DNA from: a virus
Reading direction: 5' to 3' (one strand)
DNA: 64,000 bases
IMG/VR virus record: IMGVR_UViG_3300043112_000063
Span: 1 to 64,000 of that record
Position 1 is the first letter of the stretch, and every line of letters starts with the position of its first letter. A program made the translations under genes and the position numbers. Below the pieces are notes generated by a model. That model worked only from the letters and a program-made list of their open reading frames with translations, was not told the origin of the DNA and searched no databases. This document shows, one piece after another, positions 1-58,789 of the stretch.

Positions 1-8
1 GTGTTGTC

Positions 9-44
<36 letters not shown>

Positions 45-81
45 TAGACCACAATAATATTCCTGACTCCCTTTTAAAAAC

Positions 82-411
82 TTATCTATTTCCGCCGCGA
101 CAAGCAAGTCTATACTTATCTCGAATAGATACTCGGTTAATACTTGGTTCAGTATAAGTAATCATCACGTAACAGTCTCTAGTCTGAGCGAACTTAAATG
201 CACTACCATCTTTTAGTCCTACGTTTATGACACGGTCTCCTGCTACATAGGCGAAATCAGCTTCTAACACGGCTTTTCTTATCTCCCTGCGGTTACTACT
301 CTTGAATCGTTGGTTAATACGTTGTCGGGCGTGTTTTGTTAGTTTGAAGTTATTACTAACAATTCTTAGGTCGTCTTTGTTAAGAACCCATAGTACTGGA
401 AAGGTATGCAT
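82..411 (-). CDS. Hypothetical protein, possibly DUF4258/RelE-like fold (LTKHARQRINQR motif)
   Basis: 109-aa ORF coupled to the upstream ORF; T-x-H-A-x-x-R motif. Confidence 0.6.
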   Translation of the reverse strand: MHTFPVLWVLNKDDLRIVSNNFKLTKHARQRINQRFKSSNRREIRKAVLEADFAYVAGDRVINVGLKDGSAFKFAQTRDCYVMITYTEPSINRVSIRDKYRLACRGGNR

Positions 412-611
412 TAGTAATCGTACTCACTTACTTCGTTGAAACTAATACTTGTTATAAACTTATCGCCCGCCTCAATACAGAATATAACAATCTCTCCGTC
501 TCTAACTTCATACCGTTGTACTTGTGCACCCCAGTTGCTTGCAACATTTCGACATATTCTCTCCATGTCCTCTTCGTGATATTGTTTACCATCAATGTCG
601 TAAACTTTCAT
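411..611 (-). CDS. Hypothetical early protein
   Basis: 66-aa ORF with GGGGT SD and a sigma-A promoter upstream. Confidence 0.7.
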   Translation of the reverse strand: MKVYDIDGKQYHEEDMERICRNVASNWGAQVQRYEVRDGEIVIFCIEAGDKFITSISFNEVSEYDY

Positions 612-656
612 TCTACTACCCCCTTTGTTTTTTACCTATTAAATAGGTTATACTTA

Positions 657-685
657 ATTATACTTGATAACAATGTAAATGTAAA
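657..685 (-). promoter_or_regulatory. Sigma-A-type promoter TTTACA-17-TATAAT
   Basis: Reverse complement of TGTAAA (680-685) and ATTATA (657-662). Confidence 0.75.
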
Positions 686-948
686 CCCCATAATTAGATA
701 AAGTGTACAAAATCCTTGATGTGACTTAGCGCAATTATCGACATAGGAGTTAGCGCAACTTTGAGGGTAGGACTTCACGCAATTGGAGTGACCGACCGAC
801 AGTATCTTTTAGTATTCTTTCAACTCACTAATACTTATCATTCACCTCACGACAAATATCCACAAAGAGAGCCTCATTTTCAAGTTTGATTGGCTCATTG
901 TCGAAAATGAAAACTTAATTGAAAAAATAAAATAATCACATTTACCCC

Positions 949-1078
949 TTGTAATTTCACCAATTATCACTTATAATGGGTATGTAAAGGTGGTAGAAGT
1001 CACGGTATTAAATAGTCAAAGATTATTTAAAACTTTTCACATTTACCCCTTGTAATTTCTTAATTATCGTGTTATAAT
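949..1078 (+). promoter_or_regulatory. Two tandem sigma-A promoters TTGTAA-17-TATAAT (949-977, 1050-1078)
   Basis: Both preceded by TCACATTTACCCC; exact 17-nt spacers. Confidence 0.8.
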
Positions 1079-1150
1079 TAAGTAACAAGGTAAGGTGGTC
1101 ACCTTAAAGTACCAACCAGACTGCAACCCAGTCACGAAAGGAGTTTCAAA

Positions 1151-1465
1151 ATGGCAAACAAGGTAAACAAAGTTAATCAAGATGTAGTAAAGGTAACGGT
1201 CAACGCTGTCAAGCCACAAATTACGTTCGTGAAACGTAAATTACACAAGTTCTTAAAATCAGAAAAGTTAGCGGCGAAATCAAGTACCCCTACCAAACCT
1301 GAAGCGGTCAAGTTAACCGAAGAACAAAGTAAAAAAGTGCAAGGCGTTATCAAAAGCGGACTTGAGGAAATGTCAACTAAATACGAACATACCACAAAAC
1401 CTCAAATCACGTACATCAAGAATCACTTCAATGTTCATACTAGTAAGTATTTAAAATCTGAGTAA
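1151..1465 (+). CDS. Small basic early protein; normal-composition paralogue of 3692-4015
   Basis: AAGGAG SD, tandem promoters, terminator; ~55% identical to 3692-4015 by manual alignment. Confidence 0.85.
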   Translation: MANKVNKVNQDVVKVTVNAVKPQITFVKRKLHKFLKSEKLAAKSSTPTKPEAVKLTEEQSKKVQGVIKSGLEEMSTKYEHTTKPQITYIKNHFNVHTSKYLKSE

Positions 1466-1474
1466 CATAAAAAA

Positions 1475-1500
1475 CGGGGTCGTAATTGACCCCTTTTTTA
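1475..1500 (+). terminator. Intrinsic terminator GGGGTC-gtaatt-GACCCC-T6
   Basis: Hairpin plus T tract after the stop codon. Confidence 0.8.
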
Positions 1501-1919
1501 TTTGTTTATTTTTGTTCACGCTTGACAAACTCATGGTCGAAAATGAAAATCGGAGTGAGACGACTCAAGGAGAAATTGAGCAAAAAGTGAGGTACGAGAT
1601 AGCGCAACGAAATGGTCACAGGGGTAGGCACTGACCGCCGACCCCGTAGGTTCCGAAGGAGATATCGTGTCAGATGTGACGTACCAGTTAGCGCAACTTC
1701 ACGGTTGTCAGTTAGCGCAATTGGTCGGACTCACCGATGAAATTATCCTTATCGAAAATGAAAACCTTGACTTCACATTAGATATAGTGGTGTTATTAGT
1801 TGCTATTTTCAAGGTCGACCCCGATGGTGTCATAGTCGAAAATGAACGTTTTTGCTACACTAAATCGTATTTTCCACCATTTTCTGTAGTGAAAACTTTA
1901 ATATTTTCACATTTACCCC

Positions 1920-1948
1920 TTGTAAAAACCCCAATAATCAATTATAAT
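1920..1948 (+). promoter_or_regulatory. Sigma-A promoter TTGTAA-17-TATAAT
   Basis: Same TCACATTTACCCC-TTGTAA context as 949 and 1050. Confidence 0.8.
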
Positions 1949-2007
1949 GGGTGTATAAGGTTGGTGGTAAACCAAAAACCACATTATCACATAAAGGAGT
2001 GTCGTAT

Positions 2008-2394
2008 ATGAAACAAGTTAACAATTTTGTAACAAGTAATCAAGTAGGTAGTAGTAAACAAGTAACAGTTGAACAAGGTGTAAACTACTTAATAAAGTGC
2101 CCATTTGACGTAAAAAGTAACACAATTTTACCCACACCTAATAACCCTGAAAGTGTAAGTTGGTTTATTAAAAACAATGGTAACATAGTCAGTTTTGAAT
2201 TTATACCTAAAGGTTTATACAATCAACAAAACCCAGTATGTGAAATTACCATAGTTGACCAACAAACACATAACAAGTTTAAAGGTGAAATTACCACATA
2301 TGACAGTTTAGGTTTCATGGATGACCTGTTATTAAATGTCAAACAAGAAACAGGGTTAGTGTTACAATATGATTGTTTTGGTAACCCACAGTAA
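2008..2394 (+). CDS. Hypothetical early protein (128 aa, no Ala or Arg)
   Basis: ATG at 2008 after AAGGAG; followed by a terminator. Confidence 0.8.
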   Translation: MKQVNNFVTSNQVGSSKQVTVEQGVNYLIKCPFDVKSNTILPTPNNPESVSWFIKNNGNIVSFEFIPKGLYNQQNPVCEITIVDQQTHNKFKGEITTYDSLGFMDDLLLNVKQETGLVLQYDCFGNPQ

Positions 2395-2401
2395 AACTGA
2401 A

Positions 2402-2431
2402 CAGGTGGTGTAAAAACCACCTTTTCTTTTT
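2402..2431 (+). terminator. Intrinsic terminator AGGTGG-tgtaaaaa-CCACCT-T tract
   Basis: Hairpin plus T tract. Confidence 0.75.
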
Positions 2432-2560
2432 TGGTAACATAGTATTCTTTTCTGAACTGACGACCTGAGCGCGCGGAGATTTAAGTAATTCTATGAGTTT
2501 AAGATAGAGAAGTGGAGATTTAGTCTAAAAAGAAAACATTAAAATAATCACTAAAAACTA

Positions 2561-2589
2561 TTTACATTTCCGTAATTATCAAGTATAAT
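2561..2589 (+). promoter_or_regulatory. Sigma-A promoter TTTACA-17-TATAAT
   Basis: Consensus spacing; followed by GGGTGTATAA as at 1943. Confidence 0.75.
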
Positions 2590-2664
2590 GGGTGTATAAA
2601 GGTGGTTAGGTTGTAGCAGATTTAAGCATTAGACCGACCACCTAAAATCAAAGGAGGAAAGATT

Positions 2665-2799
2665 ATGAAAAGTATTAGAGTATTTGTAGGAACATATCAA
2701 GATTGGAAAGACCTTATGGCTAAGGTGAAGAGACTCGGACTAGACCCGAGAGGTGTCACAGTTGGTACAATACCAGATATACTCGCATTTGAGGAGTAA
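2665..2799 (+). CDS. 44-aa protein MKSIRVFVGTYQDWKDLMAKVKRLGLDPRGVTVGTIPDILAFEE (not in the ORF track)
   Basis: AAGGAGG SD, own promoter, terminator-like hairpin at ~2803-2828. Confidence 0.75.
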   Translation: MKSIRVFVGTYQDWKDLMAKVKRLGLDPRGVTVGTIPDILAFEE

Positions 2800-3296
2800 A
2801 TAAAGGGGTCTTAGTCGACCTTTTTTTATTTATAGTTGTGTTATCGACACCGATAGACTCACAGTCGAAAATGAACACAAATGCGGATACGATTTAGCGC
2901 AACATTTTAGACCGACAAATGTCTCCACCGGAAGTGAACATATTAGTCCGTTGTTTTCAAGGTATGACTTAGCGCAACGATATGAACCGACCGATACAGA
3001 CCCACTAAATCATTGATACGAGATGGCGCAACTTTCGAGATACCAGATAGCGCAATTGTGCAAGAGTGACTTAGCGCAACGTTTTTCACCCGTCTCCACC
3101 GTCCACCCGTTCAATCAGGGTGGTGGTCTGGTCGTCATTTTCAAGTCAAAAAAAACACTACAACAGGGCCGTGTGTGTTGGTTTACTACAACGTCCCCGT
3201 GTGTGTTGGTTTTTATTTAAAAATAATTTTTAATAATGCACGTAAAATACCTAACATAACATACCCCCTATTTTGTTATGTAAATACTAAGGGGGG

Positions 3297-3626
3297 TTAA
3301 CCCCTTAATATTTTTTTAACGTTGTTATTGGTTAAATGGTTAATAATGGTTAATATTAAATAACGTTTGTATTGGTTTTTTGTAATACCGTTTAACTGTG
3401 TACTTTTTAATAAAGTGTTAACTTTTTTGTTTAAATAATTATAAATATAAATAACCTGTTTTTTTTGTGTTAACTTTTTAAGGTTGTTTGTGTGTGTGTT
3501 ATTTTTTAATGGTTTAAATAATTGGGTTAACCCTATTGTTTGGTTTATGGTTGTTTTTGTGTTTGTGTATAACTTGTTAAATTGTTTGTAATTGTTATAA
3601 TTAAAATTTTTTAAACTTACTAACAT
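3297..3626 (-). CDS. Basic 109-aa protein with no Asp, Glu or Ala
   Basis: Open frame; SD AAAGGGGGT just upstream of the ATG. Confidence 0.8.
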   Translation of the reverse strand: MLVSLKNFNYNNYKQFNKLYTNTKTTINQTIGLTQLFKPLKNNTHTNNLKKLTQKKQVIYIYNYLNKKVNTLLKSTQLNGITKNQYKRYLILTIINHLTNNNVKKILRG

Positions 3627-3691
3627 TTTTTACCCCCTTTAAAAATTAAGTTGTAAGGGGGTTTTGTGTACCCCCTTACTGTGTTACTTAA

Positions 3692-4015
3692 CTACTGTAA
3701 ATACTTAACTGTGTGTGTGTTTAAATGGTTTTTAATGTAGTTTAACTGTGGTTGTGTTGTGTGTGGGTATTTGGTTTTTAAACTATTTAAACCGTTTTTA
3801 ATAACTTTTTGTACCCCGTTTAACTGTGTTTGTGTTAAACCTTGTTTTACTTGTGGTTTTGTTGGCGTGTTGTTACTGTGTTGTAAGTTGTTACTTTTTA
3901 AATGTTTACTAATTAAACGTTTAATGTAAGTAACTTGTGGTTTTACTTGGTTAATTGTTACCTTAACCGTGTTACTATTTACCTTGTTAACCTTGTTTGT
4001 TACTGTGTTACCCAT
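3692..4015 (-). CDS. Basic 107-aa protein with no Asp, Glu or Ala; recoded paralogue of 1151-1465
   Basis: Shared blocks NKVNKVN, VKPQ, TPTKP, TKY.HTT.PQ, YIKNH; SD AAGGGGGT. Confidence 0.9.
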   Translation of the reverse strand: MGNTVTNKVNKVNSNTVKVTINQVKPQVTYIKRLISKHLKSNNLQHSNNTPTKPQVKQGLTQTQLNGVQKVIKNGLNSLKTKYPHTTQPQLNYIKNHLNTHTVKYLQ

Positions 4016-4087
4016 TATGTTACCCCCTTAAGTTGTAACCTTAACCCCCGTTTATACGGTGGGTGGTTGTTACTAACTTACATACCC

Positions 4088-4115
4088 ATTATACCAAAAA
4101 ATAGGGTTATTACAA
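4088..4115 (-). promoter_or_regulatory. Island promoter CCCCTTGTAA-16-TATAAT with extended -10 TG
   Basis: Same CCCCTTGTAA...TATAATGGGTATGTAA context as the promoter at 949. Confidence 0.75.
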
Positions 4116-4958
4116 GGGGGTATTTTACTTTTTTTTACTTTTGTTTTTTGTTTACTATTAAATACCCCGTTGTTTACACGTTTAAACGGTATAAAAAAAA
4201 TTAAAACTTTTTTTGTTTTTTATTAAATAACCCACTTTTGCGTATTTTTACCCCGTTTTTTGTACGTGGTTTATTTGGTATAAATACCCCCAAAAAGTAC
4301 CATTTACCCCGTTTAAAATGGCCCGTGTTAACGTTTTATTGGTTAACCGTTATATATACCACCGTTAACCGTTTAAACCGTTACAACGTAAATAACAACG
4401 TAATTATAAAAACATAACAAAACATTAAAATTGTTATGTATTACTTGTTACTACTACAACGGGTCCAGGTGTACCGTTAACGTGGGTACCTTTTTTTCAA
4501 AATGTAATAATACCATAAGGCAGAACCCATTAGAGCCCAATTTTTTACCCCCTACTGGATTTCAAGATATGCCCTAGATACAGGGAAGAATGGCTCACAA
4601 TGGTCTCCAAAAGCGGGAATGGTCCGCCTGGCGCCTCGGTTTTTTATCTGCAATAGTAAACACAGTAGGGTACTGGGGTATTTTTGAAATTGAAAAAAAG
4701 GACAACCCCAAGTTTTTAAAAGGCTGTCCTAATTTTTTATATAATTTTTTAGTTGTGTACTACAGATGAGCCACGTATGGATTATGTCAGGGACTATGTA
4801 CTCATCCTAAGCCACTACTTCATTTCTTCTACTATCTTTTTTAACTCTGGATTATCATCCAATAACTTTTCGTATATACTACTGGTCAAAAGAGTAAATT
4901 CTTGAAAATATAGAATACCACCACGAATATGATAATAAATAATAATTATTTATACTTA

Positions 4959-5207
4959 CTATAAATGGAAAGAGATTTTATTATAAGTTTTATCGATGTT
5001 CTCTTCAATGAAACCACTTTTTACAAAAGATTTTAAAATTGATGGTATTTTTTTTCTTAAACTAATGTCTGAAAAACTTTTATTAATTTCTTTTAGAGAT
5101 TTCTTTATCTCGCCCTCAGTAAATCTATCATTCTTAGTAAGAATTACACCATAAGTAAGAAACCCAAAATCAGCAGTCTTAGTCTTTTGATTCCCTTTTC
5201 TATCCAT
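4959..5207 (-). CDS. Hypothetical protein, possible winged-helix
   Basis: 82-aa ORF with GGGG SD. Confidence 0.55.
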   Translation of the reverse strand: MDRKGNQKTKTADFGFLTYGVILTKNDRFTEGEIKKSLKEINKSFSDISLRKKIPSILKSFVKSGFIEENIDKTYNKISFHL

Positions 5208-5309
5208 TTTTCCCCCTTTGTACTAACATTATAGCATTAATTTATATTTTTTCAATAATTAACTTGCTAATTGTTTATATTTATCGTCTTTTCTGTAAGA
5301 CTTTAATAA

Positions 5310-5675
5310 TTAATGCCGCCAATGTTTTTCTAATGTGTCCATCAAGTTTTCTTGTGGTATTTCAGTTTCTTCATCCGCCGGCTGGTAGCCTAGCCTTACG
5401 CTTACTCGTTTAACTATGTCCCAGTAAATCATAGAGCACATATGTCTGCTTCCGTGGTATATAGTAATACGCTCGCTAGGACGCATAATGTAAACCTCGT
5501 ATCCGCCATAAAAATGACTCTCAGTAAATCCTAGTATGTCCTTGTCAGTATCGAAGGGCACGAACATAGCGTCGGGCTCTGGTATTTGTAAGTGTGTTTT
5601 CATCTTTGTCTCCTTTCCGTTTTTTTCTTCAAAAAAAGAATCTTCAATTCTGGTACTGTATATAAAGTAAACCAC
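5310..5675 (-). CDS. Hypothetical protein (true start possibly ATG at ~5603)
   Basis: ORF; AAGGAG precedes the internal Met. Confidence 0.55.
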   Translation of the reverse strand: MVYFIYSTRIEDSFFEEKNGKETKMKTHLQIPEPDAMFVPFDTDKDILGFTESHFYGGYEVYIMRPSERITIYHGSRHMCSMIYWDIVKRVSVRLGYQPADEETEIPQENLMDTLEKHWRH

Positions 5676-5683
5676 GTGTTATC

Positions 5684-6037
5684 CTACGCGCCAAAAGCCC
5701 CGTCGATGATTTCTTGGGTGATTTCAACATAGAATTCCATGTGCTCTTTAAAAGGTCTCGTCTTTTTATAACCATTGTTATCTTTTATTTCTTCTTTAGG
5801 AGTAGCCTTGATAACTAAGTCTAAGACTACGTATAGAACGTTGTCTTTAAGTACAAGGTCTTTCTTAGTACTCATACTAATAACATTACGCCCGCTAAGG
5901 AAGTCTTCGTTATTATACAAACTAAAAACATAGTTACGTAATTGCTTAACAGTTTCTAAGTTAGCATTGTTAATGGTTTTTATTAACCTTTGTTCGTGAA
6001 ACTTAAAGTCTTTATAAGCATCAAAGACCCGTAACAT
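5684..6037 (-). CDS. Hypothetical protein
   Basis: ORF coupled to the upstream gene. Confidence 0.7.
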   Translation of the reverse strand: MLRVFDAYKDFKFHEQRLIKTINNANLETVKQLRNYVFSLYNNEDFLSGRNVISMSTKKDLVLKDNVLYVVLDLVIKATPKEEIKDNNGYKKTRPFKEHMEFYVEITQEIIDGAFGA

Positions 6038-6444
6038 TATTTAGCCTCTTTTTTCGCTTTCTTTTTAGGTTGTTTTTCGTTCTTTGTGGCGTCTTGTTCA
6101 AGTCTTTGGTTGATGCGTTTTTGCATATCTTCTAACAAAATCTTACTTGTAGCCACAATAGTTTTATACTCATACGTAGTAATAAGTCTTTCTAATTGGT
6201 ACTTGCCGTTAGATGAGTTGTTGATGTCCATTAAGTAATTTAAGTACGTATTTTTATTAATGTTATCTAACGCAACTTTAATCTTTTTAAGTGCGTCAAC
6301 CAAATCATTCTCTTTTCTAGCCTCTACAATGTAAAATGTTTTTCTCATTTCAAGTAATTGTAGTTCTAGTTGTAATTTTTCTAATTTTAATCCTCTGATT
6401 TCTTTCTCTAATCTTTCTAACTTTGTTAATTCATTATTCTTCAT
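6037..6444 (-). CDS. Hypothetical coiled-coil protein
   Basis: Heptad-rich N-terminus; SD present. Confidence 0.7.
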   Translation of the reverse strand: MKNNELTKLERLEKEIRGLKLEKLQLELQLLEMRKTFYIVEARKENDLVDALKKIKVALDNINKNTYLNYLMDINNSSNGKYQLERLITTYEYKTIVATSKILLEDMQKRINQRLEQDATKNEKQPKKKAKKEAK

Positions 6445-6586
6445 TTATCTTATACCTTCCTTTTCTAATAAGTCTATTAATACAGAGACAACTTCTTCAA
6501 CGTCAACATCATCGGAAAATGTTTTTTCAACAAACCGTGTAATTGTACGTTCTATAATTGTTCTCAAGTTTTCAATAATATTTTCA

Positions 6587-7132
6587 TCATACATTTCTAA
6601 TCCATCCCGTTTTATGTTTATTAAATAACTCTTTATTTGTTATATCGTACCTATAATTCCTTAGTAATCTATGGATAGTGGAATTACAAGCCGTAAACAT
6701 ATCTTTTTTAAGTCTTAACCTTTGTCTATCGGTTAATTTGTAGTCTATTTTTCCACATCTTTTAACTACTTGCATCTCGTATAATCTACAACCTAAAAAC
6801 TTACTGTGTTTTTGTTCTTGTTTAACTAATACACCAACACCCTTAGGTATTTTATCTTTAACTTTTTCATAAAGGTCTCTAGTCATAGCGTAGTAATTCC
6901 TATCGCCATATAAATTATGTCCTGTCTTACCATTAAAGTCTTGTAAACTTTGTTTAATCTCAACAAACGTAAACTTATCCTCTCTATCAACGGCGACAAA
7001 ATCAACTCTACCTCTTATTTTATGTTTCCAATCACTAAACCTTACTTCAAATGCACATCTTTGACCGTAATCAATAAAGTACTTACGAAAAACTAGGCTT
7101 TCTATTTGTTTGGTTTCTCTTGTTTTACTCAT
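6587..7132 (-). CDS. PD-(D/E)XK nuclease, MmcB-like
   Basis: RVDFVA...FVEIKQSLQDF motif. Confidence 0.65.
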   Translation of the reverse strand: MSKTRETKQIESLVFRKYFIDYGQRCAFEVRFSDWKHKIRGRVDFVAVDREDKFTFVEIKQSLQDFNGKTGHNLYGDRNYYAMTRDLYEKVKDKIPKGVGVLVKQEQKHSKFLGCRLYEMQVVKRCGKIDYKLTDRQRLRLKKDMFTACNSTIHRLLRNYRYDITNKELFNKHKTGWIRNV

Positions 7133-7649
7133 TAAACTTAGTCATTACATATCTGTGTTTTTTCTCACTCCACTTAGCAAAATGAGTTGATTTTATTTTT
7201 ACATCCGCGATTTTTTCGTAAAGACTTATTAATTCTTGTTTAGTTTTAACTACGTACATTTTTCCCCAATTAAACGTAACTATATTTCCGTTAAGTTTAA
7301 ATACGGGAACGGTGTGTGATTTTATAAGTGGTCTACAAAAATAAGTAAACAAGTAAGCGTTGTCTATATCTTCATACTGTCCTAAAACAGCACTAGCATA
7401 GTCATCACAGTCTCCTTCGTTTATTTCAGTAGAAAATGTTGGTGGCGCTATTCTGTTAACTAAACCCCACAACTTATCACTAACATAATTCCAGTTTTGT
7501 GCTTTTAGTTTAGCAAAGTATTGTAAACGGGTCATATTAAGTGTATCTGTGTACAACGGTTGCTCTAATTTATCTTTTGATTTCCTGTAAGAATGTCTTA
7601 GAATTAAATCCCAAAACAAATGTCTAATTTTACTTAACATTGATTTCAT
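7125..7649 (-). CDS. Transglutaminase-like/papain-fold protein
   Basis: GDCDDYA motif with a downstream His (SHTV). Confidence 0.55.
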   Translation of the reverse strand: MKSMLSKIRHLFWDLILRHSYRKSKDKLEQPLYTDTLNMTRLQYFAKLKAQNWNYVSDKLWGLVNRIAPPTFSTEINEGDCDDYASAVLGQYEDIDNAYLFTYFCRPLIKSHTVPVFKLNGNIVTFNWGKMYVVKTKQELISLYEKIADVKIKSTHFAKWSEKKHRYVMTKFNE

Positions 7650-7762
7650 CCTTTACAGCAACAATTTTAATATCACTACGACTTTTCATTTGTTCTAACT
7701 TAGATTCCCTTACTCTAACTGTTTGTTGGTGACCTTTAGAATCTACGTAGACAACAATCTTT

Positions 7763-7966
7763 TTACTGCTGTTTTGTAGTGTGTTTTCCATCTTCTTCAT
7801 CCTCCATATTTTTTATTTCTAAAGTTAATAGTATTTTTTGTTTACAAATTGGACAAACAATGGCTTTCGCCATTTCGGAGAATATCAAATCTCCTAAAAC
7901 TTGTACTCTATCAACAACTATCAACTGGTTACATTCTTTATTTGTACATCTAACTAAAAAGTTCAA
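7763..7966 (-). CDS. Small zinc-ribbon protein
   Basis: CxxxxC and CPIC; AAGGAG SD; promoter at 8007-8035. Confidence 0.6.
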   Translation of the reverse strand: MNFLVRCTNKECNQLIVVDRVQVLGDLIFSEMAKAIVCPICKQKILLTLEIKNMEDEEDGKHTTKQQ

Positions 7967-8077
7967 TAACTAACACTCCTTTCTTAATTTCTTGGTGTCT
8001 ATAAACATATTAACATATTTTAACTAAAATGTAAAGAGGTTAATTTTAAAAAATACTAAAAAAGTTACATTTTACCT

Positions 8078-33727: not shown

Positions 33728-33804
33728 GGCTGTGTAGCCCAACTGGCAGAGGCGTTAGGCTTAGACCCTATACAGTGTGAGTTCGAATCTCACCACAGTC
33801 ACCA
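33728..33804 (+). tRNA. tRNA-Leu(TAG), short variable loop
   Basis: Cloverleaf, CCA encoded. Confidence 0.85.
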
Positions 33805-33824
33805 AAATAAAAAAGGAGTGTAAT

Positions 33825-34037
33825 ATGTCTAGAGAAATAGATTATGATTTAATAGAAAAGAATATTGAAACCGAAATATATTATCAAGATGATAAAATAA
33901 TTGATATTCTTTGGGATAGTCCATATGTAGGTTTTGGACATTTAACATTAGACAAGAACACAAAAGAAATAATTGATGATGAATTTATGTCTAAAGAATT
34001 TTGTGATATTGTTATTAAAAAAACGAAAGGAGTATAA
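33825..34037 (+). CDS. Hypothetical protein
   Basis: ATG after AAGGAG. Confidence 0.6.
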   Translation: MSREIDYDLIEKNIETEIYYQDDKIIDILWDSPYVGFGHLTLDKNTKEIIDDEFMSKEFCDIVIKKTKGV

Positions 34038-34145
34038 TATGGAAGATAGAACTTTATATCAATTATGTATTCAAGCCTTAAGATATGCTCGACAAAGAGA
34101 TAATCATTTAGCTCCAGCAGTCGCAGTTGATAATATAAAAGACGT

Positions 34146-34322
34146 ATGGTTGTTAGGCCCAATAAACAACAATTAGTAGAGGAAGTTCTTAGTATGGGAA
34201 TGAGCGCTACTGGTAGAAAATATGGTGTTACACTTCAATCAATAAGTAAGTGGTTATACAATTATAATTTACCACATAAATACAAAGATTTAAAAAAATT
34301 ATATATAGATACGGTGCTGTAG
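34146..34322 (+). pseudogene. Remnant HTH resembling the C-terminus of phage HNH homing endonucleases
   Basis: RPNKQQLVEEV...SATGRKYGVTLQSISKWL; no nuclease domain; stop codon falls inside tRNA-Asn. Confidence 0.45.
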
Positions 34323-34390
34323 CTAAACTGGTAAAGCGTCTGACTGTTAATCAGAAGATTCTGTGGGTTCGAGTCCCATCGGCACCGCCA
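34313..34390 (+). tRNA. tRNA-Asn(GTT)
   Basis: Cloverleaf, CCA. Confidence 0.9.
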
Positions 34391-34394
34391 ATAT

Positions 34395-34470
34395 GGTCGG
34401 GTAGCTCAGTAGGAAGAGCGGTAGGTTGAAGCCCTACGCGTCGCAAGTTCGATTCTTGTCTCGACCACCA
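34395..34470 (+). tRNA. tRNA-Phe(GAA)
   Basis: Cloverleaf, CCA. Confidence 0.9.
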
Positions 34471-34479
34471 ATAAAGGAA

Positions 34480-35256
34480 ATGATTGTTTTGAGAAAAAAA
34501 GCGTGGCAACGATTACTTAGAGAAAAAGTAAGTGAACAACTAAACGAAACAACAGAAGATAAAGCAAAACAAATACGAATAGAACCAGAGTTTGCGGAAG
34601 TTAAAGTAATAACAAACGAGTTAGCAAAAACTATTATATTACAGTATGAGTGGTTAAAGACAATGCCACCAGCGGCGTTCTTAAGTACAGGATTATTTAT
34701 TGACGGTGAGTTGGCTGGAGTAGAAGTTTTTGTTAGCGCTAAAGCTGGTGGACACTATACGTATTTAAAGGAACAAGCAACTGTTTTAGCAAGGGGAGCT
34801 TGTGTACATTGGGCTCCGAAATGGGCGAATTCCTATTTAGTTTCTAAATCATTAAAAATACTTAGGGATTATTACGAAGGAGAACCACGATATGTTCTCG
34901 CTTACAGTGATTGGGAAGCCGGAGAACTTGGTACTATTTATCAAGCAACAAACTGGACGTACACAGGACACAGAAAAGTTCCAGAATGGCGAGATAAAAA
35001 TGGTAAGCGTTATGACCAAAATAGACATAGGGATTTAGCGAAAAAATACGATAAAGACTATAAAAAAACCAAGAAACTAAACAAGAAATATGTCGATATG
35101 GTTTATCAACAATTACTAGATAAGGGATTTTATAGAAGTCATACATATAGAGGACGTTATGTTTATGTTATTGGCTATAAAGGAAAAGAAAAAAGTCGTT
35201 TACTCAAAAAATTAAACACGGTAAAAAAACCTTACCCAAAAAGTAATATTAAATAA
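34480..35256 (+). CDS. Mom-like (GNAT-fold) DNA modification protein
   Basis: NSYLVSKSL...LAYSD...GTIYQATNW motif; start moved past tRNA-Phe. Confidence 0.7.
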   Translation: MIVLRKKAWQRLLREKVSEQLNETTEDKAKQIRIEPEFAEVKVITNELAKTIILQYEWLKTMPPAAFLSTGLFIDGELAGVEVFVSAKAGGHYTYLKEQATVLARGACVHWAPKWANSYLVSKSLKILRDYYEGEPRYVLAYSDWEAGELGTIYQATNWTYTGHRKVPEWRDKNGKRYDQNRHRDLAKKYDKDYKKTKKLNKKYVDMVYQQLLDKGFYRSHTYRGRYVYVIGYKGKEKSRLLKKLNTVKKPYPKSNIK

Positions 35257-35270
35257 GAAAGGACTACACA

Positions 35271-35825
35271 ATGTTCACATCAATTACATATGGAAAATTA
35301 ACAAAAGAACAAGTGTTTATGAAGATACTTGAAAGAATAGAACAAATAAAACGAAATGGTTATGAATATGAAATTGCTGTTGGAACAGATAGTCAAACAT
35401 ATAGAAAAACTAACATTGTAAGAAGTATAGTACTATTAGAAAAAACACACGGTGGAATATACTTTAGTAGTAAGAAAAGAATAAAAAGATTTAATGACCT
35501 ACAACCTAAAATATATGCTGAGGTTTCTGAAACACTAACTTTAGCAGATGAGTTAAGAACGTTTTTAAAAGAAAAAGGTTTTTCAACCGAAGAAATAATT
35601 GATAATTTAGTTGTAGATTTAGATATTGGTAGTAATGGTTTAACTTGTGATTTTATTCAGGGAATAACTGGTTGGGTAAAGGCTTATGGATTTAAGTTTA
35701 GATTAAAACCTTCTAGTGTTGCTGCAAGTAGAGTTTCTGATAAATTAAGTAAACGTGGAGCAGATTCAACTACAATAAAACCACACATAAGACCAAAAGA
35801 TAAAAGAAAAAAGAGTAAAAAGTAG
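35271..35825 (+). CDS. RNase H-like YkuK (DUF458) family protein
   Basis: AVGTDSQ, HGGIYF, DIGSNG, KPSSVAAS motifs. Confidence 0.8.
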   Translation: MFTSITYGKLTKEQVFMKILERIEQIKRNGYEYEIAVGTDSQTYRKTNIVRSIVLLEKTHGGIYFSSKKRIKRFNDLQPKIYAEVSETLTLADELRTFLKEKGFSTEEIIDNLVVDLDIGSNGLTCDFIQGITGWVKAYGFKFRLKPSSVAASRVSDKLSKRGADSTTIKPHIRPKDKRKKSKK

Positions 35826-35862
35826 AGTACCACTTCGCGCAATTACACTACTTTTTATAGAT

Positions 35863-35936
35863 GCGGGTGTCGTCTAATGGTAGGGCCTAAGACTTCCAAT
35901 CTTAAGATAGGGGTTCGATTCCCCTCACCCGCTCCA
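35863..35936 (+). tRNA. tRNA-Gly(TCC)
   Basis: Cloverleaf, U73, CCA. Confidence 0.9.
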
Positions 35937-36136
35937 TTAACTTATAGTGTCCGATTATTCGGAATATACGTTCTACGTTAAGTAGACACATAAGACTCAC
36001 TGTCCGCCCATTTGAAAAATGAAGACAGTGCAAAAACCAAGTTGGCACAGATAGAGGTGTTGTATGTGGTTTCCGTTAATACGCGAACAACGGTTTGACA
36101 TACAAGATATGGATTCGCGCCCATATTCCACAATAG

Positions 36137-36215
36137 GCTGGAGTAGCTCAAATGGTGGCAGAGCAACTGACTTGTAATCAGTAGGTTGTAGGTTCGATTC
36201 CTATCTCCAGCACCA
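36137..36215 (+). tRNA. tRNA-Thr(TGT)
   Basis: Cloverleaf, CCA. Confidence 0.9.
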
Positions 36216-36395
36216 TTATAAAACAAGACCCGGCAGTTTACCGCTTACCTTTTGATAGCGAACGATAATGTAAACTTATTGGTGACTGTGGGCATTAATA
36301 AAAGAATTAAGCAACAAAGTAATTAGTAATAAGTAGTAACCCTATCTTATATAATTAGTTTGAAGTTTAGTAATATAGGAATAGGAGGAAATAAT

Positions 36396-36593
36396 TTGAA
36401 CGGTACAGTAAAATGGTTTAATGCAGAAAAAGGATACGGATTCATCACCGATGAAGAAGGTAACGATATTTTTGCACACTACTCTGCTATCCAAATGGAT
36501 GGATACAAAGCGTTATCTGAAGGACAAGAAGTTACATTTGATGTTGTAGAAGGACAACGTGGACCACAAGCAGATAATATTAATTTAGTTTAA
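36396..36593 (+). CDS. cspA: Cold-shock protein
   Basis: [15 protein letters not shown]; TTG start after AGGAGG. Confidence 0.92.
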
Positions 36594-36625
36594 AAGATTG
36601 GGGAGCATACTTGCCCCCTTTATAT

Positions 36626-36702
36626 GTTGACTGTACGCTAATTGGAAAGCGGCTAGATTGTGGCTCTAGTGTAAGCGAGTTCGAACCTCGTCAGTCAACC
36701 CA
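36626..36702 (+). tRNA. tRNA-His(GTG)
   Basis: G-1:C73 pair; CCA. Confidence 0.9.
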
Positions 36703-36705
36703 TAT

Positions 36706-36779
36706 TGTAGTGTAGCTCAACGGCAGAGCAGTCGGCTGATAACCGACAGATGGAAGTTCAATTCTTCTCACTACAACCA
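36706..36779 (+). tRNA. tRNA-Ile(GAT)
   Basis: Cloverleaf, CCA. Confidence 0.88.
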
Positions 36780-37048
36780 TTTTGAAAATAAAACAGGAGT
36801 ATCCCTACCTTAGTGGGAACGATAAGACGGTAGTGGTGACGACAGCCCAGCTTTGGCGACCTAGTTACTAGGTTAAAAGAAAAATAGAAGCATGTTATTC
36901 TAGGGCTTGACCCTAGAGTCACTGCTATATTAGCTCGTCTGCCACGTGTAGACAGAGATATTACTTTATCATAAAAGTAGAGTTTTATGGTTTAGTACGG
37001 GAACAGTAAGTCAAAGTGAGTCTGCAGTAAACTTTGCAATTCCCATTC

Positions 37049-37125
37049 GGACCTTTAGCTAAATTGGTCACAGCAGTCGGCTCATAACCGAAAGATTGCG
37101 AGTTCGAGTCTCGTGAGGTCCACCA
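37049..37125 (+). tRNA. tRNA-Ile2(CAT), lysidine type
   Basis: GGACCTT acceptor stem like Bacillota Ile2. Confidence 0.75.
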
Positions 37126-37268
37126 AAAAAGATGATAGATTTGAGATAACATCAAATAGTCTATATATAAAAACTGGGGACGTTGATAGCGTAGTTAAGT
37201 TCAAAGCCCATTTCACCCTAAACTTTGTTTAAAGACTAAACGGGAGGGTGCTCGTTTCCCCTAGAGAA

Positions 37269-37994: not shown

Positions 37995-38004
37995 TTATTT
38001 ATAC

Positions 38005-51477: not shown

Positions 51478-52239
51478 ATGGATAGATTACCAGTAGCAGA
51501 AACATTTGGACCTACAATCCAAGGAGAAGGAAATTACGCAGGCAAAAAAGTTTTATTTATTAGATTTGCAGGCTGTGATTTTAGGTGTAGCTGGTGTGAT
51601 AGTAAATACACACACGTTATTACCAATGAAACAGAGTGGTTAAGTACTGAGGCTTTAATAAATAGAGTTAGAGCACTTAATGGAGAAGGCGTTTTTGGAA
51701 AAGGAAGAAAATGCGACCACATTATTTTAACTGGTGGAAACCCTGCTTTGTATAACTTAGATAAGTTTATTGATGGACTTCATAAAATGAATATGTTTGT
51801 TCATATAGAAACACAAGGTACTAAGTTTCCAGAGTGGCTACATAAGGTAGATAATGTTGTATTTTCACCAAAGGCTCCAAGTAGTAAGATGGAAGTTGAC
51901 CAACAAGATGTTGCAGAAAAGATTAATGATTTTGCTAAGAATAGAGAATTAGACGAAAACAAACACGTTATTGTTAAGATTCCTATTTTTGACGACATTG
52001 ATTACGATTGGGCAAAAGAATTTCATAGGTATTTAGATATGAGATTAATCGACCATTATTTCTTATCTGTAGGTAATAGTAATTTCAAACCAACAGATAC
52101 AAAAGACGTCATTGTTAGTGGACTTTTAGATAGTTACGATTGGCTTGTTCAAAAAGTACAAAACGATAGTTACTATAAAGATGTTTCCGTGCTACCACAA
52201 ATTCACACGTTGCTATGGGGCAACAAGATAGGAGTATAA
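51478..52239 (+). CDS. queE: 7-carboxy-7-deazaguanine synthase
   Basis: TIQGEG, CDFRCSWCDS radical-SAM motif, PQIH. Confidence 0.93.
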   Translation: MDRLPVAETFGPTIQGEGNYAGKKVLFIRFAGCDFRCSWCDSKYTHVITNETEWLSTEALINRVRALNGEGVFGKGRKCDHIILTGGNPALYNLDKFIDGLHKMNMFVHIETQGTKFPEWLHKVDNVVFSPKAPSSKMEVDQQDVAEKINDFAKNRELDENKHVIVKIPIFDDIDYDWAKEFHRYLDMRLIDHYFLSVGNSNFKPTDTKDVIVSGLLDSYDWLVQKVQNDSYYKDVSVLPQIHTLLWGNKIGV

Positions 52240-52249
52240 AAAGATAAAT

Positions 52250-52933
52250 ATGGATGATGTGAAAAGAAGAATTAAGTTGGAACCAAAACAAAAAGAAAAA
52301 CTTTTAGTTGCTGGAAAAGGAAGAATTTTAGAGCAGGAACTAGAGGAAATCGAAACGGATATTTTACCGTCTATTTATAGACTTATGGAAATGTGTGGTG
52401 GAGACCCTTCCGGAAACGGACAAAAGGATACACCATATAGAGTTGCAAAAGCCTGGATGGAAATGTCTGAGGGTTACACAGAAGACCCAAGAGAACATCT
52501 CAACACTTCGTTTGATTTAGATGACGGAGATAAGGAAATTGAGAAAGACGAGGACGATTTAGTAATTGTAGAAAACATTACTATTAAAAGTGTATGTGAA
52601 CATCATATCTTACCGTTCATTGGAACAGTAGATATTGGTTACATACCAAAAACAAAGGTATTAGGACTTAGTAAGTTTGCACGTTTAGTTAGAGGGTATG
52701 CAAGTAGATTCCAAATACAAGAGAAACTTGGTGCTCAGATTGCTAAGGCGATTATGGAAGAAGCAGACGCTAAGGGCGTAATTGTAAAAATAAACGCAGT
52801 TCATACTTGTATGATAGCACGTGGTGTTAGAGAAAAAAATTCTAATACAGTTACCGTTGCTGTTAGAGGTGTGTTTAAAGAAGATAAGATGTTAGAACAA
52901 AAATTCTTAACTGCAACAGGAGGAAACAGATGA
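52250..52933 (+). CDS. folE: GTP cyclohydrolase I
   Basis: CEHHILPF, GLSKFAR, QIQE, HTCMIARG. Confidence 0.95.
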   Translation: MDDVKRRIKLEPKQKEKLLVAGKGRILEQELEEIETDILPSIYRLMEMCGGDPSGNGQKDTPYRVAKAWMEMSEGYTEDPREHLNTSFDLDDGDKEIEKDEDDLVIVENITIKSVCEHHILPFIGTVDIGYIPKTKVLGLSKFARLVRGYASRFQIQEKLGAQIAKAIMEEADAKGVIVKINAVHTCMIARGVREKNSNTVTVAVRGVFKEDKMLEQKFLTATGGNR

Positions 52934-53382
52934 TTTTTGGAAAAAGTTATGTAACAAAAGAATTTACATTTGATGCTATGCATCAGTTACCCAACCACGA
53001 CGGATTATGTAAAAACCACCACGGACACACTTACAAACTACAAGTTACCGTTACGGGTCTTATAGATACAAATGAAGGCAAGGCTTCTGAAGGTATGATT
53101 TATGATTTTGGACATTTAAAGAAACTTGTTAAAGAGTTAGTTTTAAATAAGATGGACCACGCATTTTTGGCTAAAGGCGATGAGGAAATACTTCCTGAAA
53201 TAAAAAGACTTGGAACACGTGTTTGTGTAATGGGAGTTAGAACAACAGCTGAAAATATGTCAAAGTATATTTTTGAATTATTATCACCACAATTACCGAA
53301 AAATGTTTACTTAAAAAATGTTAGATTGTATGAAACACCAACTAGCTGGGCTGACTATACTTTAAGTGACCCAACTAAATAA
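52930..53382 (+). CDS. queD: 6-carboxytetrahydropterin synthase
   Basis: FDAMH, CKNHHGHTY, TAEN, ETP. Confidence 0.95.
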   Translation: MIFGKSYVTKEFTFDAMHQLPNHDGLCKNHHGHTYKLQVTVTGLIDTNEGKASEGMIYDFGHLKKLVKELVLNKMDHAFLAKGDEEILPEIKRLGTRVCVMGVRTTAENMSKYIFELLSPQLPKNVYLKNVRLYETPTSWADYTLSDPTK

Positions 53383-56898: not shown

Positions 56899-57175
56899 TA
56901 AAGTAATTAAAAAGATTAAAAGTTTACATAAATTAGTTACTCCTACTTTTAGAGAATACGAAACAGAACTTAAAACCTTTATTAGTCGGTATGGATATGA
57001 TGCGGACACATTTAAAATAATGGATACTATGTGGCACATAATTGTTTATGAAAAAGAAACACGGACATTATGTGCCGTCATTAAAGTTGGCTTTAGAGGT
57101 AAGGAACATTGTACGACGTATAATGTTAAATTGTATATGAAGGAGAAGACTATTGAAAAAGATTTTATTGTATAG
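56879..57175 (+). CDS. Hypothetical protein
   Basis: ORF overlapping its neighbours. Confidence 0.55.
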   Translation: MLMNKHNKVIKKIKSLHKLVTPTFREYETELKTFISRYGYDADTFKIMDTMWHIIVYEKETRTLCAVIKVGFRGKEHCTTYNVKLYMKEKTIEKDFIV

Positions 57176-57887
57176 TGGCGGACTCGATTCTTGGCTAATT
57201 AATAAAATATGGAAACCAGATATTAAGATATATGTTGATATTAATGGTGCATATAGTAAAGAAGAGATTTCAAAGCTGCCAGAAGATGTAATTGTAGAAA
57301 AATTAGATTTAGGAAAATGGGAGCTACCTAATAAAATAATCCCAATGAGAAACTTATATTTCTTAATGGTAGCAAGCAATTACGCTAAAGACGACAAGTA
57401 CGAACAGTACGAAATATGTCTAGGGGCAACAGCTGGAGACCGTGTACTTGATAAAAGCGTTGAATTTGCAGATAAAGTAACTGATTTATTCAACTATTTA
57501 TACCAAGAACAATGGTGGACTAAACAAAAACACTTTAGAATAAATCTCGATTTTAAAGATTACACAAAAGGAGATTTATTAGAACAATACTTAACTATGA
57601 ACGGTACTTTAGAAGAGGCTTGGGAAAGTAGTTTTAGTTGTTATAATCCACAAGAAGACGGTACAGAATGCTGGTCTTGTAAACCTTGTTTCCGTAAGTT
57701 TGTTACATTTTATATGGAAGGTATGACATTCGATAAGGAAAAAGAAGTTCGTATTTTAAACTACTTAGAAAAAAATATCATTCCAAAAATAAAAAGTGGT
57801 TCTTATGGACGTGGAAAAAAAGAAGAAGGAGATATTGTGACTGTTTACGAACACTTACGTTCTAAGTATCACAATATAAAAGCGTAA
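57153..57887 (+). CDS. queC: 7-cyano-7-deazaguanine (preQ0) synthase
   Basis: LYSGGLDS, IPMRN, SCY...CWSCKPC. Confidence 0.88.
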   Translation: MKKILLYSGGLDSWLINKIWKPDIKIYVDINGAYSKEEISKLPEDVIVEKLDLGKWELPNKIIPMRNLYFLMVASNYAKDDKYEQYEICLGATAGDRVLDKSVEFADKVTDLFNYLYQEQWWTKQKHFRINLDFKDYTKGDLLEQYLTMNGTLEEAWESSFSCYNPQEDGTECWSCKPCFRKFVTFYMEGMTFDKEKEVRILNYLEKNIIPKIKSGSYGRGKKEEGDIVTVYEHLRSKYHNIKA

Positions 57888-58789
57888 TGGGAAAGTTTAA
57901 TACCTACTATGCCGGGATACAGTGTCCTGAGGCCGACGAGTATATAAACGAGCACGGCTTATTAAGGTTATTAAGTTATTGGAATGATAAAAAAATGTTT
58001 GAAAAAAGATGCAAAGAAGGTCTAAAAACATTTTTAGATAGTGGTGCGTTTACAGCGTGGACTAAGAACACAGAAGTTGATATTGATGAGTATATTGAAT
58101 ATGTTAATAAGTGGGACGATGGAATAGACCATTTTATTCAGGTCGATGAAATTCCAGGAAAAAAAGGATACACACCAACACCAAAAGAAAGACTAGCGTC
58201 TAACCAAGTTACTTGGAATAATTATCTTTATATGAGAGAACGTGTAAAAAGTCCTGACAAATTAGTTCCTGTTTTTCACGCTGGTTCAGATATTAATATA
58301 CTAAGAAGATTACTTGAGTTCGAACCAAAAATAGACATGATTGCTATTGGTAACATTGTTGGAAAAACAAAAGCGGAAAAAGAAGCTAAGTTAGAAGTTA
58401 TATTTAATGAAATAACTAGAAGTAGTAACCCAGATGTTAAGATACACGCATTGGGAGTTCAAGATTTTAAATTAAGTGAAAAGTTTCCTCTTTATAGTGC
58501 CGATGCAAGTAGTTGGATAATGGTTAGCGCAAACGGTGGAATAATGAGTGAGTTTGGACCTATATTAGTAAGTGAGAAAAGTACGGAAAAGAAAAACCAC
58601 TATGAAAACCAATCACCGCCAGTCAAAGAAAAAATAGATGAGTTCATTTCTAAATATGGTTACACATACGAAGAGTTAAGTAAGGACTATAAGAAAAGAA
58701 CCTTATTTAATATTAAGTGGTTGGACGAAAGAAGTAAAAACTATGTTTGCAAGTATCACTTACGTAAAAAGAAAAACACACTATTTTAG
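57887..58789 (+). CDS. dpdA: DpdA-like (TGT-fold) DNA guanine transglycosylase
   Basis: FLDSGAFT, VPVFH, IHALG, SADASSW; clustered with the que genes. Confidence 0.8.
   Translation: MGKFNTYYAGIQCPEADEYINEHGLLRLLSYWNDKKMFEKRCKEGLKTFLDSGAFTAWTKNTEVDIDEYIEYVNKWDDGIDHFIQVDEIPGKKGYTPTPKERLASNQVTWNNYLYMRERVKSPDKLVPVFHAGSDINILRRLLEFEPKIDMIAIGNIVGKTKAEKEAKLEVIFNEITRSSNPDVKIHALGVQDFKLSEKFPLYSADASSWIMVSANGGIMSEFGPILVSEKSTEKKNHYENQSPPVKEKIDEFISKYGYTYEELSKDYKKRTLFNIKWLDERSKNYVCKYHLRKKKNTLF

What the first reader, a model, noticed from the sequence alone, without database searches (positions are those of the whole stretch)
3692..4015. Recoded twin: the same protein in a normal and a D/E/A-free version
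3692-4015 (-) aligns end to end with 1151-1465 (+), about 55% identity by hand. All Asp, Glu and Ala residues of the normal copy are replaced, e.g. QD>SN, NA>NQ, SEK>SNN, PE>PQ, TEE>TQT, LEE>LNS, YE>YP. Both copies use near-identical promoters (CCCCTTGTAA...TATAATGGGTATGTAA). This shows the island encodes real protein. It suggests a two-stage design: the constrained copy works from incoming virion DNA and the unconstrained copy works later.
Basis: partly seen in the sequence, partly recalled or inferred. Interest (0 to 1): 0.85.

Follow-up and report, generated by a model that had tools for sequence, protein, structure and literature searches.

The report
Recoded phage gene twin lacking D/E/A
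An uncultured 102-kb phage that appears to put modified guanine into its DNA keeps two old copies of one small basic early protein. One copy is written normally. The other is written, control signals included, without the DNA steps GA, TC and GC, so it cannot encode Asp, Glu or Ala and probably stays ordinary, unmodified DNA.

Summary
3692-4015(-) and 1151-1465(+) are paralogues (56% identity, E 5e-40). The minus-strand copy has no Asp, Glu or Ala.

The cause lies in the DNA. The copy sits in a unique 1270-nt stretch (3195-4464) with no GA or TC on either strand and only 4 GC. Banning those steps from codons removes exactly D, E and A. Promoter, leader, ribosome-binding site (GGGGG instead of GGAGG) and terminator obey the same rule.

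The phage encodes FolE, QueD, QueE, a QueC-like protein and DpdA. Published DpdA target motifs are GA (phage iggy) and GA plus GGC (CAjan). The cassette is therefore most likely a zone free of 7-deazaguanine.

Three other sequences carry an acid-free copy inside their own GA/TC-free stretch: a related 108-kb phage and two short contigs. The 108-kb phage also has a normal copy beside it. Flasso, CAjan and Dp-1 have neither the island nor the family.

Both copies model as three-helix bundles with no informative match. Their function is unknown.

I found no description of this in the papers searched. Unchecked notes from this scan report similar recoded twins in other phage genomes.

The parts
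3692..4015 (-). Constrained copy (P2): 107 aa, no D/E/A, all five Ser codons AGT, net charge about +16
   Evidence: fold model pLDDT 85, three helices
1151..1465 (+). Normal copy (P1): 104 aa, 14 D/E/A, 13 GA + 17 TC + 9 GC in the gene
   Evidence: fold model pLDDT 86, three helices
3195..4464 (.). Island with no GA/TC on either strand and only 4 GC. It holds the whole P2 transcription unit, about 350 nt of non-coding DNA upstream of the P2 promoter, and ORF2
4088..4115 (-). P2 promoter TTGTAA-N16-(TG)TATAAT, followed by GGGTATGTAA
4023..4029 (-). P2 ribosome-binding site AAGGGGG (GGAGG rewritten without GA), 7 nt before the ATG
3653..3679 (-). Terminator-like hairpin built from G5/C5 arms just after the P2 stop codon; reads as a hairpin on both strands
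945..1078 (+). Two tandem TTGTAA-N17-TATAAT promoters before P1. The distal one shares TATAATGGGTATGTAA with the P2 promoter
1476..1493 (+). Terminator after P1
3297..3626 (-). Island ORF2 (109 aa, also without D/E/A, GGGGG ribosome-binding site). No paralogue or homologue found. Missing from related strains
   Evidence: contigs that skip 3250-3630 and 3341-3644
51478..53382 (+). QueE-like, FolE and QueD genes of the 7-deazaguanine pathway
57153..58789 (+). QueC-like gene and DpdA-like DNA transglycosylase gene

Best explanation
P2 (3692-4015, minus strand) is an old duplicate of the early gene P1 (1151-1465). Its entire transcription unit has been rewritten so that it contains none of the steps in which this phage's DpdA enzyme is expected to place 7-deazaguanine: GA on either strand, and apparently GC. 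Loss of Asp, Glu and Ala is the direct coding cost of that rule.

The cassette therefore stays ordinary DNA inside an otherwise modified virion genome. Host RNA polymerase can read it from a sigma-A-type promoter whatever happens at modified sites. Two things could go wrong at those sites: poor reading by the host polymerase, or attack by host defences that recognise modified guanine. The normal copy supplies the unconstrained version of the same small, very basic three-helix protein, including semi-conserved acidic residues that the constrained copy has had to give up.

Shown here: the paralogy, the DNA rule and its coding consequence, the pathway genes, and conservation of the arrangement. 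Inferred: that GA and GC are this DpdA's targets, that the island is unmodified, and why that matters. The protein's biochemical role is unknown; its charge suggests nucleic-acid binding.
For: 1. Paralogy: 56% identity, E 5e-40. Synonymous sites are saturated, with 32 of 59 identical residues using different codons and dN 0.40, so the duplication is old and both copies are maintained.
2. The rule is in the DNA. Non-coding parts, the promoter, the GGGGG ribosome-binding site and the G5/C5 terminator also lack GA/TC/GC. Excluding GA, TC and GC from codons removes exactly D, E and A.
3. The genome encodes FolE, QueD, QueE, a QueC-like protein and DpdA (phrog_887, E 8e-51).
4. Published DpdA motifs are GA+GGC in CAjan (PMC7544227) and GA in iggy (PMC10484667).
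5. Conservation. In phage G001 (DpdA 65% identical) an acid-free copy sits at 93785-94219 inside a GA/TC-free stretch (93461-94400) and a GC-free stretch (93463-94654). A normal copy lies 660 nt downstream. L012/L013 and L020 each hold an acid-free copy in GA/TC-free runs of 652 and 679+349 nt.
6. The family is bimodal: 0-1% D+E+A in one group and 9-18% in the other.
7. Fixed neutral replacements occur at conserved positions: E51 to Q in 7 of 7 constrained copies, A42 to H in 6 of 7.
8. DpdA phages without this family (Flasso, CAjan, Dp-1) have no such island.
9. The island's extent follows the P2 transcription unit. ORF2 is deleted in related strains while P2 is kept.
10. Literature. 7-substituted 7-deazaG (vinyl, ethynyl, phenyl) nearly abolishes sigma-A/sigma-70 transcription, and the G of the -35 element TTGACA is critical (PMC4838386). 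Dag1/Dag2 glycosylases attack deazaguanine-modified phage DNA in proportion to modification density (bioRxiv 10.1101/2025.10.29.685425).
11. The phage's early promoters use TTGTAA (8 copies) and only one uses TTGACA, so they avoid GA in the -35 element.
Against: - No chemical evidence exists that this phage's DNA is modified, or at which motif.
- The curated TGT Pfam model does not hit the DpdA-like gene; only the PHROG family and tblastn do.
- GC as a whole, not just GGC, is depleted, which exceeds any published DpdA motif. Two of the four GC left in the island are GGC.
- Other early genes behind the same promoter type, P1 included, are full of GA/TC, so modified gene bodies are evidently tolerated. 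CAjan, Flasso and Dp-1 manage without any island.
- No expression data exist.
- The tree cannot resolve whether the constrained copies share a single origin.
- Two of the four islands come from short contigs where the presence of DpdA cannot be checked.
Confidence: 0.6

Rival explanations
1. First reader's timing model in its strict form. Modified template blocks host polymerase on gene bodies, so only P2 is made from incoming DNA. P1 is made later from newly replicated DNA that is not yet modified.
For: The whole P2 unit, not just its promoter, is purged. In vitro, bulky 7-substituents on deazaG inhibit bacterial RNA polymerases.
Against: In that study the inhibition appeared to act at initiation, and no shortened transcripts were seen. 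P1 and at least six other units share the same early promoter type yet have GA/TC-rich bodies. CAjan, Flasso and Dp-1 express early genes with no island. No RNA data are available.
Confidence: 0.2
2. The island is a DNA-level element that must stay unmodified for protein recognition, such as a packaging, replication or regulator binding site. P2 is a passenger gene that had to adapt.
For: About 350 nt of non-coding DNA upstream of the P2 promoter (4116-4464) is also purged and is rich in AACGG/ACGTT-like repeats. Short ACTACAAC direct repeats sit at both edges. The small terminase gene lies about 4 kb away.
Against: In four lineages the same gene family lies inside the purged stretch, while flank lengths and other contents differ. 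Related strains delete ORF2 but keep P2. Each island carries a full promoter-to-terminator unit for this gene.
Confidence: 0.12
3. This is ordinary avoidance of host restriction sites, or of another host DNA-targeting enzyme, in an early region and is unrelated to the phage's own DpdA.
For: Many type II sites contain GA, TC or GC. The genome does show classical site avoidance: GATC 2 against about 217 expected, CATG 30 against 255.
Against: That avoidance is genome-wide and specific to 4-mers, whereas the island bans a dinucleotide totally and locally. Palindromes lacking GA/TC/GC are at or above expectation in the island: TTAA 51 against 14.6, ACGT 9 against 4.7, GTAC 5 against 4.1. The banned step equals the published DpdA motif, and both complete genomes that carry the island also carry DpdA.
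Confidence: 0.08
4. Selection acts on the protein or the mRNA. An acid-free, more basic version has a distinct target or is a partner subunit, or the mRNA avoids a ribonuclease. The DNA composition is a by-product.
For: Constrained copies are more basic, at +14 to +20 against mostly +8 to +13. Both copies are retained over long times.
Against: Non-coding DNA, the promoter, the ribosome-binding site and the terminator obey the same rule. The rule is reverse-complement symmetric (GA and TC both absent on both strands), which points to duplex DNA rather than protein or RNA. An acid-free protein would not require the loss of Ala or of the TCN and AGC Ser codons.
Confidence: 0.05

Closest known systems
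DpdA-dependent 7-deazaguanine modification of phage DNA (Escherichia phage CAjan: dPreQ0 at GA and GGC, PMC7544227; Pseudomonas phage iggy: GA only, PMC10484667)
   Same: The genome carries FolE, QueD, QueE, a QueC-like protein and a DpdA-like transglycosylase next to polA and dnaN. The step banned from the island (GA, with most GC) matches the published target motifs.
   Different: Neither paper, as far as I read them (term searches only), mentions a motif-free zone. CAjan itself has none: its longest GA/TC-free run is 81 nt, which is the chance expectation. The modified base and the motif of this phage are unmeasured, and the GC depletion is broader than GGC.
Restriction-site avoidance in phage genomes, including early-entering regions (own knowledge: T7 and T5 early regions, GATC-free Staphylococcus phage K)
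   Same: A short DNA word is purged by selection because an enzyme reads it, and early-expressed DNA is involved. This genome also shows the classical form: GATC 2 against about 217 expected.
   Different: Here the purged word is a dinucleotide, the purge is total, and it is confined to one transcription unit. It changes the amino-acid alphabet. The enzyme being avoided is most likely the phage's own modifying enzyme rather than a host nuclease.
Host defences against deazaguanine DNA (Dag1/Dag2 glycosylases, bioRxiv 10.1101/2025.10.29.685425) and effects of 7-substituted deazaG on bacterial transcription (PMC4838386)
   Same: Both give concrete reasons why a stretch free of modified G could be useful: it would be immune to modification-directed attack, and host sigma-A polymerase could read it fully.
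   Different: Neither work describes a phage counter-design of this kind. Nothing links P1/P2 to these enzymes.
Bacillus phage Flasso (MZ357961), the closest cultured relative by DpdA (43% identity)
   Same: Similar genome size (108 kb) and the same replication and deazaguanine gene neighbourhood (polA, queC/D/E, folE, DpdA, dnaN, Cas4-like nuclease).
   Different: Flasso has QueF, no member of the P1/P2 family and no GA/TC-free island; its longest run is 92 nt.

Membership tests
Phage 7-deazaguanine DNA modification system (DpdA type) | preQ0 synthesis genes FolE, QueD, QueE and QueC in the genome | tested here: met
   Pfam: GTP_cyclohydroI 1e-60, PTPS 8e-35, Radical_SAM 1e-9, QueC 3e-16. PHROG families for QueE, FolE, QueD and QueC-like
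Phage 7-deazaguanine DNA modification system (DpdA type) | DpdA, a TGT-like DNA transglycosylase | tested here: met
   phrog_887, E 8e-51. tblastn matches genes annotated queuine/queuosine tRNA-ribosyltransferase in 134 phage records, including Dp-1 and Flasso. The curated Pfam TGT model gives no hit, so the match rests on phage-specific profiles
Phage 7-deazaguanine DNA modification system (DpdA type) | 7-deazaguanine present in virion DNA at a defined motif | not testable with these tools
   Uncultured phage from oil-field metagenomes. The motif is inferred only from what the island lacks
Classical restriction-site avoidance | Depletion of specific 4-6-bp, mostly palindromic, sites rather than of a dinucleotide | tested here: not met
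   The island bans GA/TC totally but keeps TTAA, ACGT and GTAC at or above expectation. Genome-wide GATC and CATG avoidance is a separate layer
Any named protein family for P1/P2 | Significant match to Pfam, PHROGs, PDB, BFVD or ESM Atlas clusters | tested here: inconclusive
   No Pfam or PHROG hit. Foldseek E above 1 in PDB and BFVD. VIA-align best Z 6.8, within the noise for helical bundles. No usable ESM Atlas hit. The exhaustive HMMER search found only 16 representatives, all unnamed

The most novel reading that the evidence does not exclude
The purged cassette is a 'safe-mode' gene. It is a stretch of ordinary DNA that survives and is read even when a host enzyme is destroying or blocking the phage's modified DNA. 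Its basic three-helix product shields modified DNA or neutralises a modification-dependent defence such as a Dag-like glycosylase or a type IV nuclease. If so, recoded twins would be a general counter-counter-defence design of base-modified phages, and the purged words would read out each phage's modification motif from sequence alone.
Probability: 0.25. Interest if true: 0.9.

Novelty: new variant of a known kind. Interest (0 to 1): 0.8.

Why it matters
- It gives a sequence-only way to read the target motif of a DNA-modifying enzyme in uncultured phages: whatever the purged cassette lacks.
- It shows that a phage can pay a visible protein-level price, a 17-letter amino-acid alphabet, to keep one gene free of its own DNA modification. 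That implies modified DNA carries a cost or a risk early in infection, and the point is directly testable with transcription assays and with modification-dependent defences.
- The acid-free and normal twins are a natural experiment on how far a fold tolerates removal of Asp, Glu and Ala.
- The unknown P1/P2 family is marked as a priority early function in this phage clade.

Tried and rejected
- DNA search of the island against GenBank phages (blastn): no match. tblastn of P1: no match.
- Pattern scans of IMG/VR with single proteins found nothing. The 18-sequence alignment was too diverse for the tool. The neighbour-gene scan only re-found the same 11-kb contig.
- Fold searches (PDB and BFVD by Foldseek, VIA-align wide) and the ESM Atlas gave only generic helical-bundle rows.
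- Rfam on 1-8000 gave only a sub-threshold L20-leader row.
- The tree of 18 family members is unresolved. One clade for the constrained copies is neither shown nor rejected (p-AU 0.33).
- dN/dS is uninformative because dS is saturated.
- Sequencing runs: no RNA holder is listed, so nothing can be said on expression.
- Variant contigs are short. Of 8 listed substitutions in the island, 7 create no GA/TC/GC against about 42% expected to, which is too few to test.
- One 21-nt-sided joint that would remove the whole island (3167 to 4455) is too weak to count.
- No sigma-factor domain and no QueF were found in the genome.
DNA for homologues P0002, P0008 and P0018 could therefore not be fetched, and P1-P2 pairing was not tested.
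- Two literature searches for motif-free zones in modified phage genomes found no such report.

Full report
**What is there**

The window is the first 64 kb of a 102,045-bp viral record whose ends overlap, so the assembly is circular. It is a tailed phage with portal, HK97-type capsid, small terminase, family A polymerase, DnaB, primase, a clamp, 25 tRNAs and a tmRNA. The runs that hold it fully are oil-field metagenomes. Partial holders are wastewater and subsurface samples.

BLASTP gives 56% identity over 103 residues with one gap, E 5e-40. The plus-strand product (P1, 104 aa) has 14 Asp+Glu+Ala and the minus-strand product (P2, 107 aa) has none. Every aligned D/E/A of P1 is N, Q, T, H, V, S or P in P2.

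**Why P2 lacks D, E and A**

P2 lies in a stretch (3195-4464) with no GA and no TC on either strand for 1270 nt. The next-longest such run in the genome is 93 nt, and about 89 nt is the expected longest run. GC occurs only 4 times where about 28 are expected.

If GA, TC and GC are banned from codons, 40 codons remain, and the only amino acids lost are D, E and A. Ser keeps only AGT, and all five Ser codons of P2 are AGT.

The rule is not a by-product of protein composition, because the non-coding parts obey it too:
- The P2 promoter is TTGTAA-N16-TATAAT.
- The ribosome-binding site is AAGGGGG, where P1 has AAAGGAG.
- The terminator hairpin is built from G5 and C5 arms.
- About 350 nt upstream of the promoter is also purged.

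The rule is reverse-complement symmetric, which points to something that reads duplex DNA. The island is not depleted of G as such. Palindromes without the banned steps are at or above expectation: TTAA 51 against 14.6, ACGT 9 against 4.7, GTAC 5 against 4.1. The genome also shows classical site avoidance, with GATC 2 against about 217 expected and CATG 30 against 255. That avoidance is genome-wide, so it is a different layer.

**What reads GA**

The genome encodes QueE-like, FolE and QueD proteins at 51478-53382, and a QueC-like protein and a DpdA-like transglycosylase at 57153-58789. The curated Pfam TGT model misses the DpdA gene. PHROG 887 matches at E 8e-51, and tblastn finds the genes annotated queuine/queuosine tRNA-ribosyltransferase in 134 phage records.

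Published mapping places dPreQ0 at GA and GGC in phage CAjan, and at GA alone in phage iggy, with nearly all sites modified (PMC7544227 and PMC10484667). The island is therefore best read as a stretch that DpdA cannot modify. This is an inference, since no chemistry exists for this phage. The depletion of GC in general goes beyond the published GGC motif.

**Is the twin arrangement selected?**

Yes. An exhaustive HMMER search of 1.8 billion representatives found only 16 family members, and a second search added two. Their D+E+A content is bimodal. It is 0-1% in P2 and six homologues (P0002, P0008, P0011, P0015, P0018, P0019), 3% in one, and 9-18% in the rest.

The comparative evidence is as follows:
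- **G001**, a complete 108-kb relative whose DpdA is 65% identical, has an acid-free copy at 93785-94219. It sits inside a GA/TC-free stretch (93461-94400, one exception) and a GC-free stretch (93463-94654). A normal copy follows 660 nt downstream, and there is a third, distant copy.
- **An 11-kb viral contig** with syntenic neighbours holds an acid-free copy in a 652-nt GA/TC-free run.
- **A 3.9-kb metagenome contig** holds an acid-free copy in GA/TC-free runs of 679+349 nt and a 944-nt GC-free run.
- **Related strains** delete island ORF2 but keep P2.
- **Bacillus phage Flasso** (the closest cultured DpdA, 43%), **CAjan** and **Dp-1** have no run beyond chance, and Flasso has no family member.

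So the island and the family go together and are specific to this clade.

P2 is closer to other constrained copies (70-75%) than to P1 (57%). P1 is closest to a normal homologue (63%). Synonymous sites between P1 and P2 are saturated. The duplication is therefore old and both copies have been kept. The tree cannot say whether recoding happened once.

**The protein**

With the family alignment, AlphaFold2 gives confident three-helix models for both copies (pLDDT 86 and 85), with helices at matching positions. The same alignment content was used for both, so the two models are not independent.

No database gives an informative match. All members are very basic, with pI 9.5-10.6 and net charge +8 to +20. 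K21, K28, Y78, H96 and Y100 are invariant in both classes.

At the three most conserved acidic or Ala columns of the normal copies, the constrained copies carry neutral replacements:
- E51 becomes Q in 7 of 7.
- A42 becomes H in 6 of 7.
- D19 becomes mostly Q, with single M, T and N.

This is what purifying selection under a restricted alphabet should look like. It also suggests a functional cost that could explain why a normal copy is kept. Nucleic-acid binding is a guess from the charge.

**How it most likely works**

P2 is a monocistronic early unit (promoter 4115-4088, terminator 3679-3653) read by host sigma-A polymerase. Eight TTGTAA-type promoters exist in the genome against one TTGACA type. 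They avoid GA in the -35 hexamer, whose G is critical for sigma binding.

Because the unit carries no target step, it should be the one gene-sized piece of the virion genome without modified G. Two published facts make that useful:
- 7-substituted 7-deazaguanines, including ethynyl, nearly abolish transcription by E. coli and B. subtilis polymerases in vitro (PMC4838386). By my own comparison, ethynyl is close in shape to the cyano group of preQ0.
- Bacterial glycosylases Dag1/Dag2 fragment deazaguanine phage DNA in proportion to modification density (bioRxiv 10.1101/2025.10.29.685425).

I cannot tell which pressure applies. The symmetric, promoter-to-terminator purge fits 'no modified base anywhere in the unit' better than a promoter-only effect. 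It is weakened by the shared early promoter type, by GA/TC-rich bodies in other early genes, and by DpdA phages that lack islands. It is not refuted.

**Novelty**

Two literature searches found no report of a motif-free zone or a recoded paralogue in a modified phage genome. The CAjan and iggy papers, as far as I read them (term searches only), describe none.

Notes from this scan report similar purged early cassettes, and in some cases recoded twins, in unrelated phage genomes. I did not check those, and they are not independent evidence.

I class the finding as a new variant of motif avoidance. The avoided reader is probably the phage's own modifying enzyme, and the purge reaches into the protein alphabet.

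Noticed in passing
whole genome (window 1-64000 and beyond): Classical restriction-site avoidance across the genome: GATC 2 copies against about 217 expected, CATG 30 against 255, GGCC 21 against 75. The relative G001 instead nearly lacks GGCC (2 against 71). GATC is avoided even though its G lies in a GA step.
   Followed up: partly
window 1500-1860 and 2830-3090: Clusters of short repeats (TAGCGCAA(C/T) and GTCGAAAATGAA) fill the spacers between the early transcription units on both sides of the 2008-2799 genes. Their function is unknown.
   Followed up: no
window 1979-2502 (ORF 2008-2391): Related strains in four other metagenomes keep the promoter at 1916-1948 but not this gene. One contig continues with a different ORF directly behind it. 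Early genes seem to be swapped as cassettes behind conserved promoters. This ORF is also GC-free for 370 nt and has a homologue next to the acid-free copy in L020.
   Followed up: partly
window 3157-3192 and 4448-4458: ACTACAAC(G) direct repeats lie at both edges of the island. One short contig joint (3167 to 4455, only 21 nt on one side) hints at a form without the island, but it is too weak to count.
   Followed up: partly
window 3297-3626 (-): The second island ORF (109 aa, N/K/T-rich, GGGGG ribosome-binding site) has no homologue or paralogue. Variant contigs skip it precisely (3250 to 3630 in two runs, 3341 to 3644 in one).
   Followed up: partly
genome 90139-90513 (-), outside the window; G001 106704-106991: A third, distant and non-basic paralogue of the family shares mainly the C-terminal helix motif Y-I-x-x-H-x-x-x-H-x-x-Y.
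   Followed up: no
window 44183-47020: The SNF2-type helicase ORF contains a LAGLIDADG/Hint-like insert, probably an intein.
   Followed up: no
window 33728-43768: 25 tRNA genes and a tmRNA gene (43146-43539) form one array.
   Followed up: no
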